Source: a virus
IMG/VR virus record: IMGVR_UViG_2895374923_000002
Coordinates: 15,523 to 79,522 of that record
Direction: 5' to 3' (one strand)
DNA length: 64,000 nucleotides
The notes below the pieces were generated by a model. That model made no database searches and had not been told where the DNA came from. It worked only from the letters and a program-made list of their open reading frames with translations. A program made the position numbers and the translations under genes. The stretch's first letter is position 1. Each line of letters starts with the position of its first letter. Shown here piece by piece: positions 28,046 through 30,901 of this stretch.

Positions 28046-28082
28046 AAATTCAGGTGTGACGCGTCACGCTGATCGCTACCGT
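28046..28082 (+). promoter_or_regulatory. Putative promoter of the Y RNA/Ro60 operon
   Basis: TACCGT -10-like box at 28077 just upstream of the first RNA; palindrome GTGACGCGTCAC; GTCACGCTGATC shared with 30943. Confidence 0.45.
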
Positions 28083-28090
28083 AAGAACTG

Positions 28091-28161
28091 CTTCAGGTGC
28101 GAAGGCGACCGGCTACTTCTTCAGGTGAAACTACGCCGGACGCCGCTTCCGATCTCTGAAG
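28091..28161 (+). ncRNA. Y-RNA-like ncRNA 1 (short, no tRNA module)
   Basis: Ends pair (CTTCAG/CTGAAG); shares 5' GGTGCGAAGGCGACCGGCTACTTC and 3' GCCG..TTCCGATCTC motifs with RNAs 2 and 3; upstream of Ro60. Confidence 0.65.
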
Positions 28162-28180
28162 CTCACAACTTGATATGCAC

Positions 28181-28317
28181 CTTCCCGGTGCGCAGGCAGC
28201 GGCTACTTCCTCTCTCAAAGGAGAGACGCGGGTTCGAATCCCGCCGCCCACCTCGGTGGACGTCGTCTAGCGGCCAAGGACACCTACGTCGCCGTCGCCG
28301 ACCTTGATCTCGGGAGG
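28181..28317 (+). ncRNA. YrlA-like Y RNA 2: circularly permuted tRNA-Glu(CUC)-like module
   Basis: Ends pair (CTTCCCG/CGGGAGG); anticodon arm TTCCT-CTCTCAA-AGGAG, T arm GCGGG-TTCGAAT-CCCGC, loop-closed acceptor stem, D arm TC-GTCT-AGCGGCCAA-GGAC-A. Confidence 0.85.
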
Positions 28318-28333
28318 GAACAACTTCAAAAGG

Positions 28334-28467
28334 CGTGCCCGGTGCGCAGGCAACGGTTCCTTCCGACTCCTAATCGGCTGGTTGCGGGTTCGAGTCCCGC
28401 CGGTCTCCGGACCGTAGCTCAAGCGGTAGAGCAGCTGGCACCGTCGCCGACTTCGATCTCGGGCGCG
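28334..28467 (+). ncRNA. YrlA-like Y RNA 3: circularly permuted tRNA-like module with CCU anticodon loop
   Basis: Ends pair (CGTGCCC/GGGCGCG); anticodon arm CCGA-CTCCTAA-TCGG, T arm GCGGG-TTCGAGT-CCCGC, acceptor CGGTC-TCCG-GACCG, D arm TA-GCTC-AAGCGGTA-GAGC-A. Confidence 0.85.
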
Positions 28468-28479
28468 ACCTATTGAACG

Positions 28480-28511
28480 AGGCCCCTTTCGCACTGCTAT
28501 GAGAGGGGCCT
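28480..28511 (+). terminator. Strong hairpin between the Y RNAs and the Ro60 start (attenuator or processing site)
   Basis: AGGCCCCTTTC-GCACTGCTAT-GAGAGGGGCCT followed by short TTGT. Confidence 0.5.
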
Positions 28512-28520
28512 TGTCGCGTC

Positions 28521-30104
28521 ATGGCGAAGTTCAACAGCACGACCACGAAGACCGCGGTGTCGAGCCCGGTGAAGACCGAGGCGACGCCCTCCGGCCGCAC
28601 GCATGAGGGTGCGCCCGGCTACGCCCGGGACGCCAAGGGAGAGCTTTTCCTGCTCGCGGTGACGAACATGGTCGGCGAGGACACCTTCTATGAGAAGAAG
28701 GGCGACCGAGACAACCGCTTCCGGGCGCTCGTCCACCAGGTGGCCGTCGAGGACGGCGACTGGCTGGCCCGCTTCCTGCCGTGGCTCCGCCTGGACGCGA
28801 ACATGCGCTCGGCCCCGATCGTCGCCGCCCTGGAGGCGGTCAAGGCGCGACTGGCAGCGGGCGAGAACGGCCTGAACCGGCAGCTCGTCAACACTGTCCT
28901 ACAGCGCGCCGACGAGCCCGGCGAGGCGCTCGCCTACTGGACCTCCACCTACGGCCGCGCGATCCCCAAGCCCGTCAAGCGCGGTGTCGCCGACGCGGTG
29001 CAGCGCCTGTACAACGAGCGTTCGCTGGTGAAGTACGACACCAGCTCGCACGGGTGGCGGTTCGGCGACGTTATCGACGTCATCCACCCAAGCCCGGACC
29101 CGGGCAAGCCGTGGCAAGGAGCGCTGTTCGAGCACGCCCTCGACCGGCGCCACAACCGTGACAAGCCGATCCCCGAGGTGTTGCGCACGCTGATCGAGCG
29201 GGCACAGCTCATGGCATTGCCGGTCGAGTCCCGCGCCGCGGTCCTGGCTGCGGAGCCCGAGCGGCTCGCCGCCGCCGGGATGACGTGGGAGGCGCTGGCA
29301 GGGTGGCTGCAGGGCCCGATGGGCAAGGGCGCGTGGGAGTCGATTATCCCGTCGATGGGGTACATGGCGCTGATCCGCAACCTCAGGAACTTCGACGAGG
29401 CCGGTGTCTCCGACGAGGTCGCCGCGCAGATCGTCGCCAAGCTCACCGACCCAGCTGAGGTGGCGAAGTCGAGGCAGCTGCCGTTCCGCTTCTACTCGGC
29501 CTACCGCAACGCGCCGTCCCTGCGGTGGGGTTACGCCTTGGACAAGGCGCTTACGTCGGCCACAGCGAACGTGCCGTCGTTCAAGGGCCGCACGCTGATC
29601 CTGGTGGACACCTCCGCGTCGATGTCGAGCGGCGGCATCTCCGCCCGTTCCACCGTCACGCCTGTCCAGGCGGCGGCGCTGTTCGGCGTGGCCCTGGCAA
29701 CGCGGGGCGACCAGGTGGATCTGTACGGCTTCGCCGACGACGTGTTCAAGCATCCCATCCCGGCCGGCGGGTCCGTCCTTAAGGAGATGGAGCGCTTCTG
29801 CAGGCGGATCGGCGAGGTCGGCCACGGCACGCAGATCGCTGACTCGGTGCGCCGCACCTACTCGGGCCACGACAGGGTGATCATTCTGTCCGACATGCAG
29901 ACCATGTCCGGCTACTACGCGGGCGACGTCACCAGCGCTGCTCCCAAGCACATCCCCATGTACGGCTTCAATCTGCAGGGCTACCAGCACGCGGCGATGC
30001 CAGCGGGCGGCGGAAACCGGCACGAGCTTGGAGGGTTCTCCGACTCCACGTTCAAGCTGATCCCGCTCCTGGAGGCAGGACGAAACGCCGACTGGCCGTT
30101 CTGA
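28521..30104 (+). CDS. rsr: Ro60/Rsr TROVE-VWA ribonucleoprotein
   Basis: THEGAPGY, NMRSAP, GYMALIRNLRN, LPFRF (TROVE); LVDTSASM MIDAS and IILSDMQT (VWA). Confidence 0.95.
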   Translation: MAKFNSTTTKTAVSSPVKTEATPSGRTHEGAPGYARDAKGELFLLAVTNMVGEDTFYEKKGDRDNRFRALVHQVAVEDGDWLARFLPWLRLDANMRSAPIVAALEAVKARLAAGENGLNRQLVNTVLQRADEPGEALAYWTSTYGRAIPKPVKRGVADAVQRLYNERSLVKYDTSSHGWRFGDVIDVIHPSPDPGKPWQGALFEHALDRRHNRDKPIPEVLRTLIERAQLMALPVESRAAVLAAEPERLAAAGMTWEALAGWLQGPMGKGAWESIIPSMGYMALIRNLRNFDEAGVSDEVAAQIVAKLTDPAEVAKSRQLPFRFYSAYRNAPSLRWGYALDKALTSATANVPSFKGRTLILVDTSASMSSGGISARSTVTPVQAAALFGVALATRGDQVDLYGFADDVFKHPIPAGGSVLKEMERFCRRIGEVGHGTQIADSVRRTYSGHDRVIILSDMQTMSGYYAGDVTSAAPKHIPMYGFNLQGYQHAAMPAGGGNRHELGGFSDSTFKLIPLLEAGRNADWPF

Positions 30105-30214
30105 GGGTCGCGCCGATTCTGTCGGTGTGACCTGCCAGCATTTGCCTCACAACCAAAGTGCCCCGGCGGGTGGTCGCACACCCGGCCGGGGCCGCCGACT
30201 GTCAGGAGTCAGCG

Positions 30215-30901
30215 ATGAGGAACGTTACCGTGGCCTGCTCGTGCGGTCGGACCATGGGTCTGGACGCGATCAGCGGTGCCGGCGCGTATCGATGCGGCTG
30301 TGGCGTCCGGGTCACGATCAGCGAGAAGGCCCGTAAGCCAGCCTGCTTAGGCGGTACCGCCGATCGTGCGTGCGAATTCGCGGCTAGTAAAGACTCGGAC
30401 GGCGTCGGGATCCCGCTGTGCGCGGATCATCTGGCGAGTTTCAACGCGTTCCGCGAGACCGTGGAGGACGGGGAGCGCTGGGGCGAGCTCATGAAAGACG
30501 CCTGGGAGGATAGCCGCCGAGCCCTTAAGGAAGGGCTGGCATCGAGACAGGCATGGGAGGGCGACTACCTGGCCGCCCGCCGTAAGTTGTACGAGACGCA
30601 GTCGGTCGTCTACTACGTCCGCATTGGCGACGCGATCAAGATTGGCGTCACGACCAACATGAAGGCGCGAATGCCGCAGGTGATGCCGGACGAGGTTCTC
30701 GCCACTGAGCCTGGCGATATCAACCTGGAACGACAGCGGCAGGCGCAGTTCGCTCATCTGAAGCTCCGCGGGGAGAGGTTCCTGCCAGGCGATGACCTAA
30801 TCAGGCACATCGCCGAGATCAAGCGGCAGCACGGTGAGCCCAAGATGACGGGGTATCTGCTCACGGACTCGCACAAACACAGGCTTGGTGGCGCGCTCTA
30901 A
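30215..30901 (+). CDS. T5orf172/GIY-YIG-like nuclease with N-terminal zinc ribbon
   Basis: VVYYVRIGDAIKIGVTTNMKARM...LATEPGDINLER.R.AQFAHL.LRGERF; CSCG/YRCGCG. Confidence 0.8.
   Translation: MRNVTVACSCGRTMGLDAISGAGAYRCGCGVRVTISEKARKPACLGGTADRACEFAASKDSDGVGIPLCADHLASFNAFRETVEDGERWGELMKDAWEDSRRALKEGLASRQAWEGDYLAARRKLYETQSVVYYVRIGDAIKIGVTTNMKARMPQVMPDEVLATEPGDINLERQRQAQFAHLKLRGERFLPGDDLIRHIAEIKRQHGEPKMTGYLLTDSHKHRLGGAL

What the first reader, a model, noticed from the sequence alone, without database searches (positions are those of the whole stretch)
28046..30901. Phage-borne Ro60/Y-RNA cassette with a three-member ncRNA array and a nuclease instead of RtcB
Seen: three tandem RNAs (28091-28161, 28181-28317, 28334-28467) share a terminal stem (5' GGTGCG[A/C]AGGC..CGG.T.C, 3' GCCG...GATCTC), are separated by CAACTT-containing spacers, and sit directly upstream of a full TROVE-VWA protein and a T5orf172-type nuclease. 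Established: Ro60/Rsr binds Y RNAs, tRNA-mimicking YrlA RNAs occur in bacteria and some phages, and bacterial rsr loci are often linked to RtcB RNA repair. Inference: this is a self-contained phage RNP system with a modular RNA array, a constant Ro-binding stem carrying interchangeable tRNA heads. It could counter host tRNA-cleaving defences or redirect host RNA decay.
Basis: partly seen in the sequence, partly recalled or inferred. Interest (0 to 1): 0.92.

Follow-up and report, generated by a model that had tools for sequence, protein, structure and literature searches.

The report
Prophage Ro60 gene with Y-RNA array
A prophage in a Nonomuraea-like actinomycete carries the RNA-binding ring protein Ro60 preceded by three small partner RNAs (two of them tRNA look-alikes); the feature is real and well conserved, but it belongs to a kind already described in bacteria and phages.

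Summary
Three tandem RNAs (28089-28163, 28180-28318, 28334-28467) share a covarying terminal and bulged stem and lie directly upstream of a TROVE+vWA Ro60 gene (28521-30104), inside a prophage integrated at tRNA-Val.

A covariance model built only from relatives hits RNA3 (E 1.5e-24) and RNA2 (E 8e-20). RNA1 is a short YrlB-like hairpin conserved in 13 loci.

The architecture is not special to this phage:
- Over 50 distinct Ro60 loci, mostly Streptosporangiaceae plus Lentzea and Nocardia, the array has 1-5 units, and 3 is the commonest number.
- The ten contexts inspected were chromosomal in nine cases.
- Published actinophages (VanLee, Quantum, LuckySocke, Rabbitrun) hold 2-3 tandem units, unannotated or called tRNA.

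The literature already describes this: Chen 2014 (M. smegmatis YrlA and YrlB from one precursor; 22 phages) and Thermus phage phiLo Ro60 with Yrl1 and Yrl2 (2025).

The T5orf172-type gene (30215-30901) is an optional, mobile-looking gene. It is present at this junction in 3 related phages, absent in 3, and absent from every chromosomal locus examined. I do not read it as a replacement for RtcB.

This scan has noted phage Ro60 with Y-like RNA arrays several times on other DNA. Verdict: new member of a known kind, with moderate interest.

The parts
28052..28074 (+). Promoter/operator-like element with the perfect palindrome GTGACGCGTCAC (28056-28067), about 30 nt upstream of the first Y RNA.
   Evidence: The same palindrome lies about 30 nt upstream of the first unit in the related prophage loci L045, L046, L047 and L048/L036. 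A half-site precedes the MerR-like gene in three of them. It is absent from the chromosomal loci. No sigma-70 consensus was found. Its function is inferred.
28089..28163 (+). Y RNA 1: a short, headless, YrlB-like hairpin carrying the Ro-type stem.
   Evidence: It is conserved in 13 loci. The consensus fold has 16 pairs, 7 of them with compensatory changes. It is 91% identical to the first unit of two related prophages.
28164..28179 (+). Spacer 1, CACAACTTGATATGCA (A+T-rich, probably a processing site).
   Evidence: Across 42 spacers in relatives the mean length is 17.6 nt and the A+T content 51%; 18 contain ACAA. Processing is inferred from the M. smegmatis precedent (PMC4201824).
28180..28318 (+). 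Y RNA 2: YrlA-like. In order: Ro-type stem, anticodon-arm-like hairpin (loop CUCUCAA), T arm, closed acceptor-like stem, tRNA-Glu-type D arm.
   Evidence: Model R1, built without the window, scores 100.1 bits, E 8e-20, full length. The D arm matches host tRNA-Glu at 20 of 21 positions. It is 89% identical to the unit in chromosomal locus L007. Rfam YrlA gives only 14.3 bits.
28319..28333 (+). Spacer 2, AACAACTTCAAAAGG.
28334..28467 (+). Y RNA 3: YrlA-like, proximal class. The head resembles tRNA-Lys/Asn, and the closed acceptor-like stem is shortened to 5 bp.
   Evidence: R1 scores 121.8 bits, E 1.5e-24. In the 29-sequence alignment 98.7% of cells are paired, 18 pairs carry compensatory changes, and 0 of 500 shuffles reach this. 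Rfam YrlA gives a partial match of 45.5 bits, below the gathering score of 69. ARAGORN's tRNA-Arg(cct) at 28335-28408 is a mis-registered reading of this RNA.
28477..28514 (+). A 15-bp hairpin between the last Y RNA and the Ro60 start codon. Its 3' arm holds the purine-rich, Shine-Dalgarno-like run.
   Evidence: Free energy is -26 kcal/mol with z -4.2. A hairpin with z of -2.5 or lower lies at this position in 18 of the 28 loci scored, with different sequences. Its role (terminator, or control of Ro60 translation) is inferred.
28521..30104 (+). Ro60/Rsr homologue (527 aa; TROVE ring plus vWA domain with MIDAS motif DTSAS).
   Evidence: It is the only copy in the genome. It is 73-85% identical to Streptosporangiaceae homologues and at most 47% identical to known phage Ro-like proteins.
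30215..30901 (+). Optional gene: an N-terminal Cys-rich region, a long helix, and a C-terminal T5orf172/MUG113 (GIY-YIG-like) domain. It is not a conserved part of the cassette.
   Evidence: Its presence or absence at the Ro60|MerR junction is shown. GC3 is 0.79 against 0.91 for Ro60.
27809..28027 (+). Small Cys-rich protein (72 aa) that precedes the array in the related prophages (context).
   Evidence: tblastn finds it at 72-75% identity, directly upstream of the array, in L045, L047 and L048/L006. It has no Pfam family.
31025..31252 (+). MerR/HTH_17 (excisionase-like) gene that follows Ro60 directly in the related prophages lacking the T5orf172 gene (context).

Best explanation
This is a Ro60 (Rsr)-Y RNA ribonucleoprotein module of the YrlA/YrlB kind, carried by a temperate phage integrated at tRNA-Val in a Streptosporangiaceae genome (probably Nonomuraea).

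**Shown**
- There are three adjacent RNAs on the Ro60 strand.
- Their 5' and 3' ends form a covarying terminal helix. Next comes a bulged helix with the invariant 5' strand GGUGCG(A/C)AGG, which corresponds to the Ro-binding GNCGAA-type motif.
- Two of the RNAs carry a tRNA-like domain: T arm, closed acceptor-like stem and D arm, plus an anticodon-arm-like hairpin. The third is a plain hairpin.
- The gene order and RNA classes are those of the Ro60 loci of the host family. Those loci were chromosomal in nine of the ten contexts inspected.
- The prophage copies nest within that family's clade.

**Inferred**
- The three RNAs are made as one precursor from a phage-specific promoter/operator (the palindrome GTGACGCGTCAC) and are cut apart at the short A+T-rich spacers.
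- Each RNA binds the Ro60 ring through the constant helix.
- The tRNA-like heads tether Ro60 to host tRNA-binding or RNA-degrading enzymes. PNPase is the best precedent (the RYPER complex), so the particle would steer decay or quality control of structured RNA during phage development or in the lysogen.
- The hairpin before the start codon couples array transcription to Ro60 translation.

The T5orf172-like gene downstream is an optional, probably mobile (homing-endonuclease-like) insertion, not a working partner.
For: **RNA homology and structure**
- R1, built without the window, hits RNA3 and RNA2 full length at E 1.5e-24 and 8e-20, and nothing else full length in the genome.
- On A1, 98.7% of cells are paired, 18 pairs carry compensatory changes, and slid controls give 36-46% paired.
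- Over 80 units, each unit's own 5' and 3' strands pair better than swapped partners: 0 of 2000 permutations reach the observed value for both helices.
- The short class has 7 covarying pairs.

**Protein**
- TROVE domain, MIDAS motif, phrog_850, and a match to phiLo Ro60 (9KOP).

**Phage context**
- Terminase, portal and tail genes; methylases, HNH and DUF5131 genes; tRNA-Val att repeat.
- Five further related (pro)phage loci share the module or its Ro60-MerR junction.

**Host-type origin**
- The Ro60 tree and the chromosomal neighbours of relatives.

**Precedents**
- M. smegmatis YrlA and YrlB lie upstream of rsr and come from one precursor; YrlA-like RNAs were reported in 22 phages (PMC4201824).
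- phiLo Ro60 binds two upstream Yrl RNAs and host PNPase (PMC12135203).

**T5orf172 gene is optional**
-.
Against: - No expression data: no RNA run could be listed. Transcription, processing and Ro60 binding are therefore untested here.
- The Rfam YrlA gathering score is not reached (45.5 and 14.3 bits against 69), and the NCBIfam Rsr equivalog cut-off is far from met.
- RNA2 and RNA3 have CGCA where the published motif has CGAA.
- No consensus promoter was found.
- The PNPase-tethering step rests only on precedent from other species.
- All three close homologues of the T5orf172 gene whose upstream flank is held lie next to Ro60 (window, L077, L079). A functional link in that sub-lineage is therefore not excluded.
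Confidence: 0.85

Rival explanations
1. The cassette is a self-contained phage anti-defence system: Ro60 displays tRNA-mimic heads as baits or shields against host anticodon nucleases, and the T5orf172 nuclease takes the place that RtcB holds in bacterial rsr operons.
For: - The heads resemble particular tRNAs: the D arm and loop CUCUCAA of RNA2 match tRNA-Glu(CUC), and RNA3 has GACUCCUAAUC where tRNA-Lys(CUU) has GACUCUUAAUC.
- The hairpin before the T arm can be drawn as 5 bp plus a 7-nt loop, with U33 in 45 of 50 units and R37 in 46 of 50.
- The T5orf172-like gene lies next to Ro60 in three phage loci.
- Head composition differs between related prophages.
Against: - The triplet at the anticodon position is not conserved among orthologous units: 13 different triplets in the proximal class.
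- The same RNAs precede Ro60 genes with no phage around them in nine of the ten contexts inspected.
- Part of the 'anticodon stem' competes with a covarying long-range stem to the nucleotides after the D arm.
- The T5orf172 gene is absent from three related prophages and from every chromosomal locus examined, and it tracks the MerR-like gene rather than Ro60.
- The host has RtcB elsewhere in the genome.
Confidence: 0.1
2. Lysogenic conversion. The cassette mainly serves the lysogen, giving a host that has no Ro60 of its own the stress-related RNA quality control (UV, stationary phase) known for bacterial Rsr.
For: - It is the only Ro60 gene in the genome.
- Only 2 of 13 other genomes of the genus have one.
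- The sequence type is that of the host family's Ro60 loci, and the prophage copies nest among chromosomal ones.
- Bacterial Rsr aids survival after UV and in stationary phase (established knowledge, cited in PMC12135203).
Against: - The cassette lies on the same strand as, and in the middle of, the phage's early-to-late gene run. It carries a phage-lineage-specific operator-like palindrome that is also found before the MerR/excisionase-like gene.
- Strictly lytic phages also carry Ro60 with Y-like RNAs.
- There are no expression data.
- This reading is not exclusive of the best explanation.
Confidence: 0.3
3. The elements are ordinary phage tRNA genes (ARAGORN calls tRNA-Arg(CCU) at 28335-28408).
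For: ARAGORN's call. The T and D arms are canonical.
Against: - Rfam tRNA scores 20.5 bits, below its gathering score of 29, with mismatched acceptor pairs.
- The D arm lies 3' of the T arm, so the order is permuted.
- The acceptor-like stem is closed by a loop.
- The whole 134-nt unit, including the outer stem, covaries.
Confidence: 0.02

Closest known systems
Mycobacterium smegmatis rsr locus with YrlA and YrlB (Chen et al. 2014, PMC4201824; Rfam RF02553)
   Same: - It is an actinobacterial locus with tandem Y RNAs on the same strand directly upstream of the Ro60 gene, processed from one precursor.
- One RNA has a T arm, a closed acceptor stem and a D arm on a Ro-binding stem. A second RNA is simpler.
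- A GNCGAA-type motif lies on the 5' strand.
   Different: - Here there are three RNAs, two of them with full tRNA-like heads.
- The cassette lies in a prophage.
- RNA2 and RNA3 have CGCA in the motif.
- The acceptor-like stems are 5-6 bp rather than 7.
- The Rfam score is below the gathering threshold.
Thermus phage phiLo Ro60 with Yrl1 and Yrl2 (NAR 2025, PMC12135203; PDB 9KOP, 9L5Y)
   Same: - A phage-encoded Ro60 with Y-like RNAs directly upstream.
- It is the closest solved structure to this protein (E 8e-27).
- It gives the precedent for recruiting host PNPase.
   Different: - phiLo is a large phage of Thermus.
- Its two RNAs are described there as stem-bulge-stem Y-like RNAs with a CGAA motif; a tRNA-like domain is not mentioned in the passages I read.
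- The protein matches only over residues 247-522.
- The present cassette is of the host-family type, in a temperate actinophage.
'Ro-like RNA binding protein' genes of sequenced actinophages (Streptomyces phages LuckySocke, Quantum, BRock; Gordonia phages VanLee, Rabbitrun; cluster C mycobacteriophages)
   Same: - The Ro60 homologue is annotated.
- R1 finds 2-3 tandem full-length units directly upstream of it.
   Different: - The proteins are only 38-47% identical and lie on long separate branches.
- Those phages are large, and two of the four I looked at (LuckySocke, Rabbitrun) have tRNA genes on both sides of the Ro-like gene.
- Their Y-like RNAs are unannotated, or annotated as tRNA or CDS (against 99).
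Salmonella rsr-yrlBA-rtcBA RNA repair operon
   Same: Ro60 with YrlA and YrlB in one locus.
   Different: No RtcB, RtcA or RtcR lies at this locus. The only RtcB of the genome is on another contig.

Membership tests
Ro60/Rsr (TROVE + vWA ring protein) | TROVE (HEAT-repeat ring) domain | tested here: met
   Pfam PF05731 scores 1.2e-14, 54.8 bits, above the cut-off of 23. phrog_850 scores 9.5e-54 over residues 8-523.
Ro60/Rsr (TROVE + vWA ring protein) | C-terminal vWA domain with MIDAS motif DxSxS | tested here: met
   DTSAS is at residues 363-367. Pfam VWA_2 (22.8 bits) and vWA_Ro60 (16.5 bits) fall below their cut-offs. The alignment to phiLo Ro60 covers residues 247-522.
Ro60/Rsr (TROVE + vWA ring protein) | NCBIfam equivalog NF041674 (RNA-bind_Rsr) cut-off | tested here: not met
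   30.9 bits against a cut-off of 900. The protein is a divergent branch, not the Deinococcus/enterobacterial equivalog.
Ro60/Rsr (TROVE + vWA ring protein) | Binds Y RNAs | not testable with these tools
   Needs RIP or EMSA.
YrlA Y RNA (Rfam RF02553; Chen 2014) | Rfam gathering score (69 bits) | tested here: not met
   RNA3 gives 45.5 bits over model positions 24-84 only, and RNA2 gives 14.3 bits. There was nothing at the gathering threshold.
YrlA Y RNA (Rfam RF02553; Chen 2014) | Encoded within 4 kb of the Ro60 gene on the same strand | tested here: met
   The three RNAs lie 54-432 nt upstream on the + strand. They are the only such units in the genome.
YrlA Y RNA (Rfam RF02553; Chen 2014) | tRNA-like domain: T arm, closed acceptor-like stem and D arm, enclosed by a stem made of the 5' and 3' ends | tested here: met
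   The T arm, acceptor stem and outer helices covary, and the D stem is invariant. RNA2 and RNA3 match the full-length model.
YrlA Y RNA (Rfam RF02553; Chen 2014) | GNCGAAN0-1G motif near the 5' end | tested here: inconclusive
   RNA1 has UGCGAAGG, which contains CGAA. RNA2 and RNA3 have UGCGCAGG, with CGCA instead. Across relatives A and C alternate at this position.
YrlB-type short Y RNA | Long hairpin with a Ro-type stem and a small pyrimidine-rich top, no full tRNA-like domain, encoded beside YrlA | tested here: met
   RNA1 is 75 nt. In the 13-sequence alignment 7 pairs carry compensatory changes.
T5orf172 / MUG113 (GIY-YIG clan) | Match to PF10544 or PF13455 | tested here: inconclusive
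   The window's protein gives no hit even at E 10. Of its 27 aligned homologues, 22 match MUG113 and 15 match T5orf172. Y133, K142-I143-G144, R152, E172 and E187 are invariant. GIY-YIG folds (Slx1, HIGLE, EF2693) match at Z 4.2-4.5.
rsr-rtcBA RNA repair operon | RtcB/RtcA ligase-cyclase genes adjacent to rsr | tested here: not met
   The only RtcB of the genome is on contig C23. None was seen beside Ro60 in the ten contexts of about 20 kb inspected, where only selected neighbours were scanned.
Canonical tRNA | Rfam tRNA gathering score and an open acceptor stem in 5'-D-anticodon-T-3' order | tested here: not met
   20.5 bits against 29. The arm order is permuted, and the acceptor-like stem is closed by a loop.

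The most novel reading that the evidence does not exclude
In this actinomycete and phage lineage the Y-RNA array may be a rapidly reshuffled library. One constant Ro60 'handle' would carry heads copied from different tRNAs (Glu-, Lys/Asn- and Gly-like), each keeping an anticodon-loop-shaped hairpin.

Temperate phages would then exchange heads, acquire an HNH insertion in one unit, and gain or lose a T5orf172 gene. They would use the set to bait or recruit tRNA-directed host enzymes, such as defence nucleases, modification enzymes or RNase P, during infection.
Probability: 0.12. Interest if true: 0.7.

Novelty: new member of a known kind. Interest (0 to 1): 0.35.

Why it matters
- **A new lineage.** The finding adds a temperate-phage lineage of Streptosporangiaceae to the carriers of Ro60/Y-RNA modules. 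Their cassette is of the host family's own type rather than the type found in known actinophages, so phage and chromosome appear to have exchanged it.
- **An annotation gap.** Rfam's YrlA model misses these RNAs. ARAGORN calls one a tRNA-Arg, and published phage records annotate equivalent units as tRNA or as small CDS.
- **A resource.** The 80-unit set of covarying units, in five classes, could seed a better model.
- **What it does not do.** It does not open a new kind of system. The biological role of bacterial and phage Ro60 RNPs remains the open question, and a lysogen whose only Ro60 is prophage-borne would be a convenient place to test it.

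Tried and rejected
- **Rfam at gathering threshold:** nothing.
- **Megablast of the locus against phage records:** no match.
- **RNA-seq runs holding the locus:** none was listed, so expression could not be examined.
- **Sigma-70 promoter scan:** 0 sites; the terminator-like hits are no more than chance gives.
- **Foldseek of the T5orf172-like model against PDB:** nothing at E <= 0.001. VIA gives only weak GIY-YIG matches.
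- **The palindrome as a window-wide regulon:** rejected. There is only one exact copy, and near matches are no more than chance gives.
- **My interim reading that the T5orf172 gene is a single recent insertion unique to this window**: rejected. L077 and L079 show the same gene order.
- **RNA2 and RNA3 as simple circular permutations of one tRNA each:** not upheld. In RNA2 the D arm is Glu-like but the T side is closest to tRNA-Gly; in RNA3 the D arm is Asn-like and the T side Lys-like. The 5-bp 'anticodon stem' also shares nucleotides with a covarying long-range stem.
- **Reviews and supplements:** two reviews (PMC10870794, PMC6047535) and the supplements of Chen 2014 are not held. I could not check whether arrays of more than two Y RNAs, or Streptosporangium arrays, are already tabulated there.

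Full report
**What is there.**
- The window lies at C8:64948-128947 of an 11.4 Mb genome in 55 contigs. Its relatives are named Nonomuraea, Streptosporangium, Planobispora and the like, so the family is Streptosporangiaceae.
- Nearly all genes of the window run on the + strand. They include large terminase (phrog_19179, 8e-147), portal (6e-99), a minor tail protein, DNA methylases, an HNH protein and DUF5131.
- A tRNA-Val(CAC) gene lies at C8:49223-49297. A 49-nt copy of its 3' half, with one mismatch, lies at C8:157216-157264. These bracket about 108 kb that contains the whole window. The cassette therefore sits in integrated phage DNA, possibly more than one element.

**The RNAs.**
- Three units lie at 28089-28163, 28180-28318 and 28334-28467. 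They begin with 7 variable nucleotides and then GGTGCG[A/C]AGGC..CGG.T[A/C]CTTC. They end with CCG..GCCG, 4-6 nt, GATCTC and the complement of the first 7 nt.
- Rfam gives nothing at the gathering threshold. With relaxed thresholds it gives a partial YrlA match on RNA3 (45.5 bits against 69), covering the T arm, closed acceptor stem and D arm, and a weak match on RNA2.
- ARAGORN's tRNA-Arg(CCU) at 28335-28408 is a mis-registration of RNA3.

**Comparative test.**
- A search of 401 genomes of the family found a Ro60 homologue in 90, but in only 2 of 13 other genomes of the genus. Upstream of each of the 29 best loci (69-79% protein identity) lie 1-5 units with the same end motifs.
- Over 50 distinct loci, including Lentzea and Nocardia, the counts of units are: 1 unit in 2 loci, 2 in 8, 3 in 23, 4 in 16 and 5 in 1. 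Three is the commonest number.
- The units fall into five classes: a short class, Glu-type, a second D-arm type, a class with a T arm only, and a proximal class. The window has short, Glu-type and proximal, in that order.
- Over 80 units there are 27 different outer 5' strands and 33 different inner 5' strands. Each pairs better with its own 3' strand than with those of other units (6.66 against 4.96 pairs, and 7.30 against 6.30). None of 2000 permutations reaches these values.
- On 29 proximal-class units the consensus fold has 34 pairs, with 98.7% of cells paired and 18 pairs carrying compensatory changes. Slid controls give 36-46% paired. The short class has 16 pairs, 7 of them compensatory.
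- A covariance model built from 28 relatives without the window scores RNA3 at 121.8 bits (E 1.5e-24) and RNA2 at 100.1 bits (E 8e-20). In the whole genome only these two match full length.

**Heads.**
- The order is outer stem, hairpin, 4-5 nt, T arm, closed acceptor-like stem, D arm, outer stem. This is the published YrlA layout (PMC4201824; bioRxiv 10.1101/312249).
- The D arm of RNA2 matches host tRNA-Glu at 20 of 21 positions, and its hairpin loop CUCUCAA equals the tRNA-Glu(CUC) anticodon loop. Its T side is closest to tRNA-Gly.
- The D arm of RNA3 is closest to tRNA-Asn (20 of 22). Its hairpin and T side are closest to tRNA-Lys(CUU).
- The hairpin can be drawn as 5 bp plus a 7-nt loop in 39 of 52 units, with U33 in 45 of 50 and R37 in 46 of 50. 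The middle triplet varies freely among orthologues.
- Two or three of the hairpin's 3' nucleotides also covary with the nucleotides after the D arm: A-U in 14 and G-C in 13 at one pair. The inner hairpin pairs covary as well: G-C in 13 and C-G in 12. The real fold may be a short anticodon-stem equivalent plus a smaller hairpin.

**Between RNAs and protein.**
- Spacers are 13-19 nt and A+T-rich, as expected for a processed polycistron. M. smegmatis YrlA and YrlB come from one precursor (PMC4201824).
- A 15-bp hairpin (28477-28514, -26 kcal/mol, z -4.2) lies between RNA3 and the start codon. Its 3' arm holds the purine run that should serve as the ribosome-binding site.
- A hairpin with z of -2.5 or lower lies at this position in 18 of the 28 loci scored, with different sequences.

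**The protein.** ORF 28521-30104 has the TROVE domain, the MIDAS motif DTSAS, and its best solved relative in phage phiLo Ro60. It is the only Ro60 gene in the genome.

**Phage or host?**
- Of the ten relatives' contexts fetched, nine look chromosomal: large genes on both strands, including a glucanotransferase, a ROK regulator, a xylose-isomerase-like gene and a hemerythrin-domain gene. One (L036) is phage-like.
- Loci L045 (Nonomuraea sp. NPDC050643, Ro60 85% identical), L047 (N. phyllanthi) and L048 (Streptosporangium sp. NPDC023963) share the window's flanks: DNA-binding protein, small Cys-rich protein, array, Ro60, MerR-like gene.
- All of these have the palindrome GTGACGCGTCAC about 30 nt upstream of the first unit, which the chromosomal loci lack.
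- Their first unit is 91% identical to RNA1, but the other units belong to different classes. One unit in L048 is split by an HNH gene.
- On the Ro60 tree the prophage copies fall inside the Streptosporangiaceae clade, interleaved with chromosomal ones. They are far from the long branches of known actinophage Ro-like proteins (the direction of transfer was not tested).
- Model R1 also finds 2-3 tandem full-length units upstream of the Ro-like genes of the published phages VanLee, Quantum, LuckySocke and Rabbitrun.

**The 'nuclease'.**
- ORF 30215-30901 has no Pfam hit of its own. Among its homologues, 22 of 27 match MUG113 and 15 match T5orf172.
- The model (pLDDT 85) has a Cys-rich N-terminus, a long helix, and a C-terminal domain whose only non-helical matches are GIY-YIG proteins at Z 4.2-4.5.
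- At the same junction the gene is absent in L045, L047 and L048, where the MerR-like gene follows Ro60 after about 125 nt. It is also absent from the 29 other loci.
- It is present in L077 (Ro60 78% identical, this protein 67%) and in L079 (Ro60 only 52%, this protein 67%).
- The MerR-like protein of the carriers is 67-72% identical to the window's, against 60-65% in non-carriers.
- More distant relatives of the gene lie in phage contigs with no TROVE gene within 4 kb.
- Its GC3 is 0.79 against 0.91 for Ro60. RtcB lies on another contig.
- Presence or absence at one intergenic site, with a history discordant from that of the upstream gene, is what a free-standing homing-endonuclease-like gene would show. 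A functional link in that sub-lineage is not excluded.

**Comparison with what is known.**
- Chen et al. 2014 reported YrlA-like RNAs next to Ro60 in 254 bacteria and 22 phages, at least two Y RNAs in each species they studied, and Streptosporangium roseum among their examples.
- The 2025 phiLo paper showed a phage Ro60 binding two upstream Y-like RNAs and host PNPase.
- This scan has reported phage or bacterial Ro60 with arrays of 3-7 Y-like RNAs on other DNA.
- The finding is therefore a well-supported new member of a known kind. Its local points of interest are the host-type cassette in a temperate phage lineage, the turnover of heads, and the missed or mistaken annotation.

Noticed in passing
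L036:8769-9463 (= L006:453-1147, L048:954-1650; Streptosporangium sp. NPDC023963 prophage): One YrlA-like unit is split inside its closed acceptor-like stem by an insertion of about 600 nt. The insertion carries a 182-aa ORF (L036:8857-9405) with an HNH motif (HIDHVTPKSRGG...ACHVCN). An intact counterpart lies at L009:1026-1173 and L045:1504-1651. This looks like a homing-endonuclease or intron-like insertion in a Y RNA.
   Followed up: partly
window 28477-28514 and the equivalent position in most of L006-L034: A conserved hairpin lies between the last Y RNA and the Ro60 start codon. Its 3' arm contains the Shine-Dalgarno-like purine run, and the sequences differ between loci while the pairing is kept. 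It may act as a terminator or attenuator, or as a translational control of Ro60.
   Followed up: partly
L004:2202-2341 (VanLee), L002:2268-2415 (LuckySocke), L005:1979-2383 (Rabbitrun): In published phage records, Y-RNA-like units found by model R1 overlap features annotated as tRNA-Arg(tct), tRNA-Ser(gct) or small hypothetical CDS (gp93, gp94). These are probable mis-annotations.
   Followed up: partly
own genome C8:49223-49297 and C8:157216-157264 (outside the window): tRNA-Val(CAC) and a 49-nt repeat of its 3' half bracket about 108 kb that includes the whole window. They are likely attL and attR of one or two integrated elements.
   Followed up: partly
L038:11150-12412, L040:11136-12392, L039:7840-9090 (minus strand): A conserved protein of about 418 aa with no Pfam family (75-84% identical among the three genomes sampled) lies directly downstream of chromosomal Ro60 genes. 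It could be an unrecognised partner.
   Followed up: no
window 30105-30215 and 30955-31024: Strong hairpins flank the T5orf172-like gene: -61 kcal/mol with z -4.6 upstream, and a terminator-like hairpin with a U-rich tail before the MerR-like gene. GGTGTGAC (30124-30131) and GGTGTCAC (30940-30947) lie at the two edges of the extra segment.
   Followed up: partly
L041 (OQ622092.1 region 20420-20718) and other 43-kb Xanthomonas/Xylella phages: Pieces of the array match DNA just upstream of the Ro60-like gene of these small proteobacterial phages at 78% identity, one place being annotated tRNA-Thr. Y-like RNAs probably exist there too.
   Followed up: no
window 27809-28027: A 72-aa Cys-rich protein (CxxC...CxxxxC...C) always precedes the Y-RNA array in the related prophages. 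It has no Pfam family and its function is unknown.
   Followed up: no
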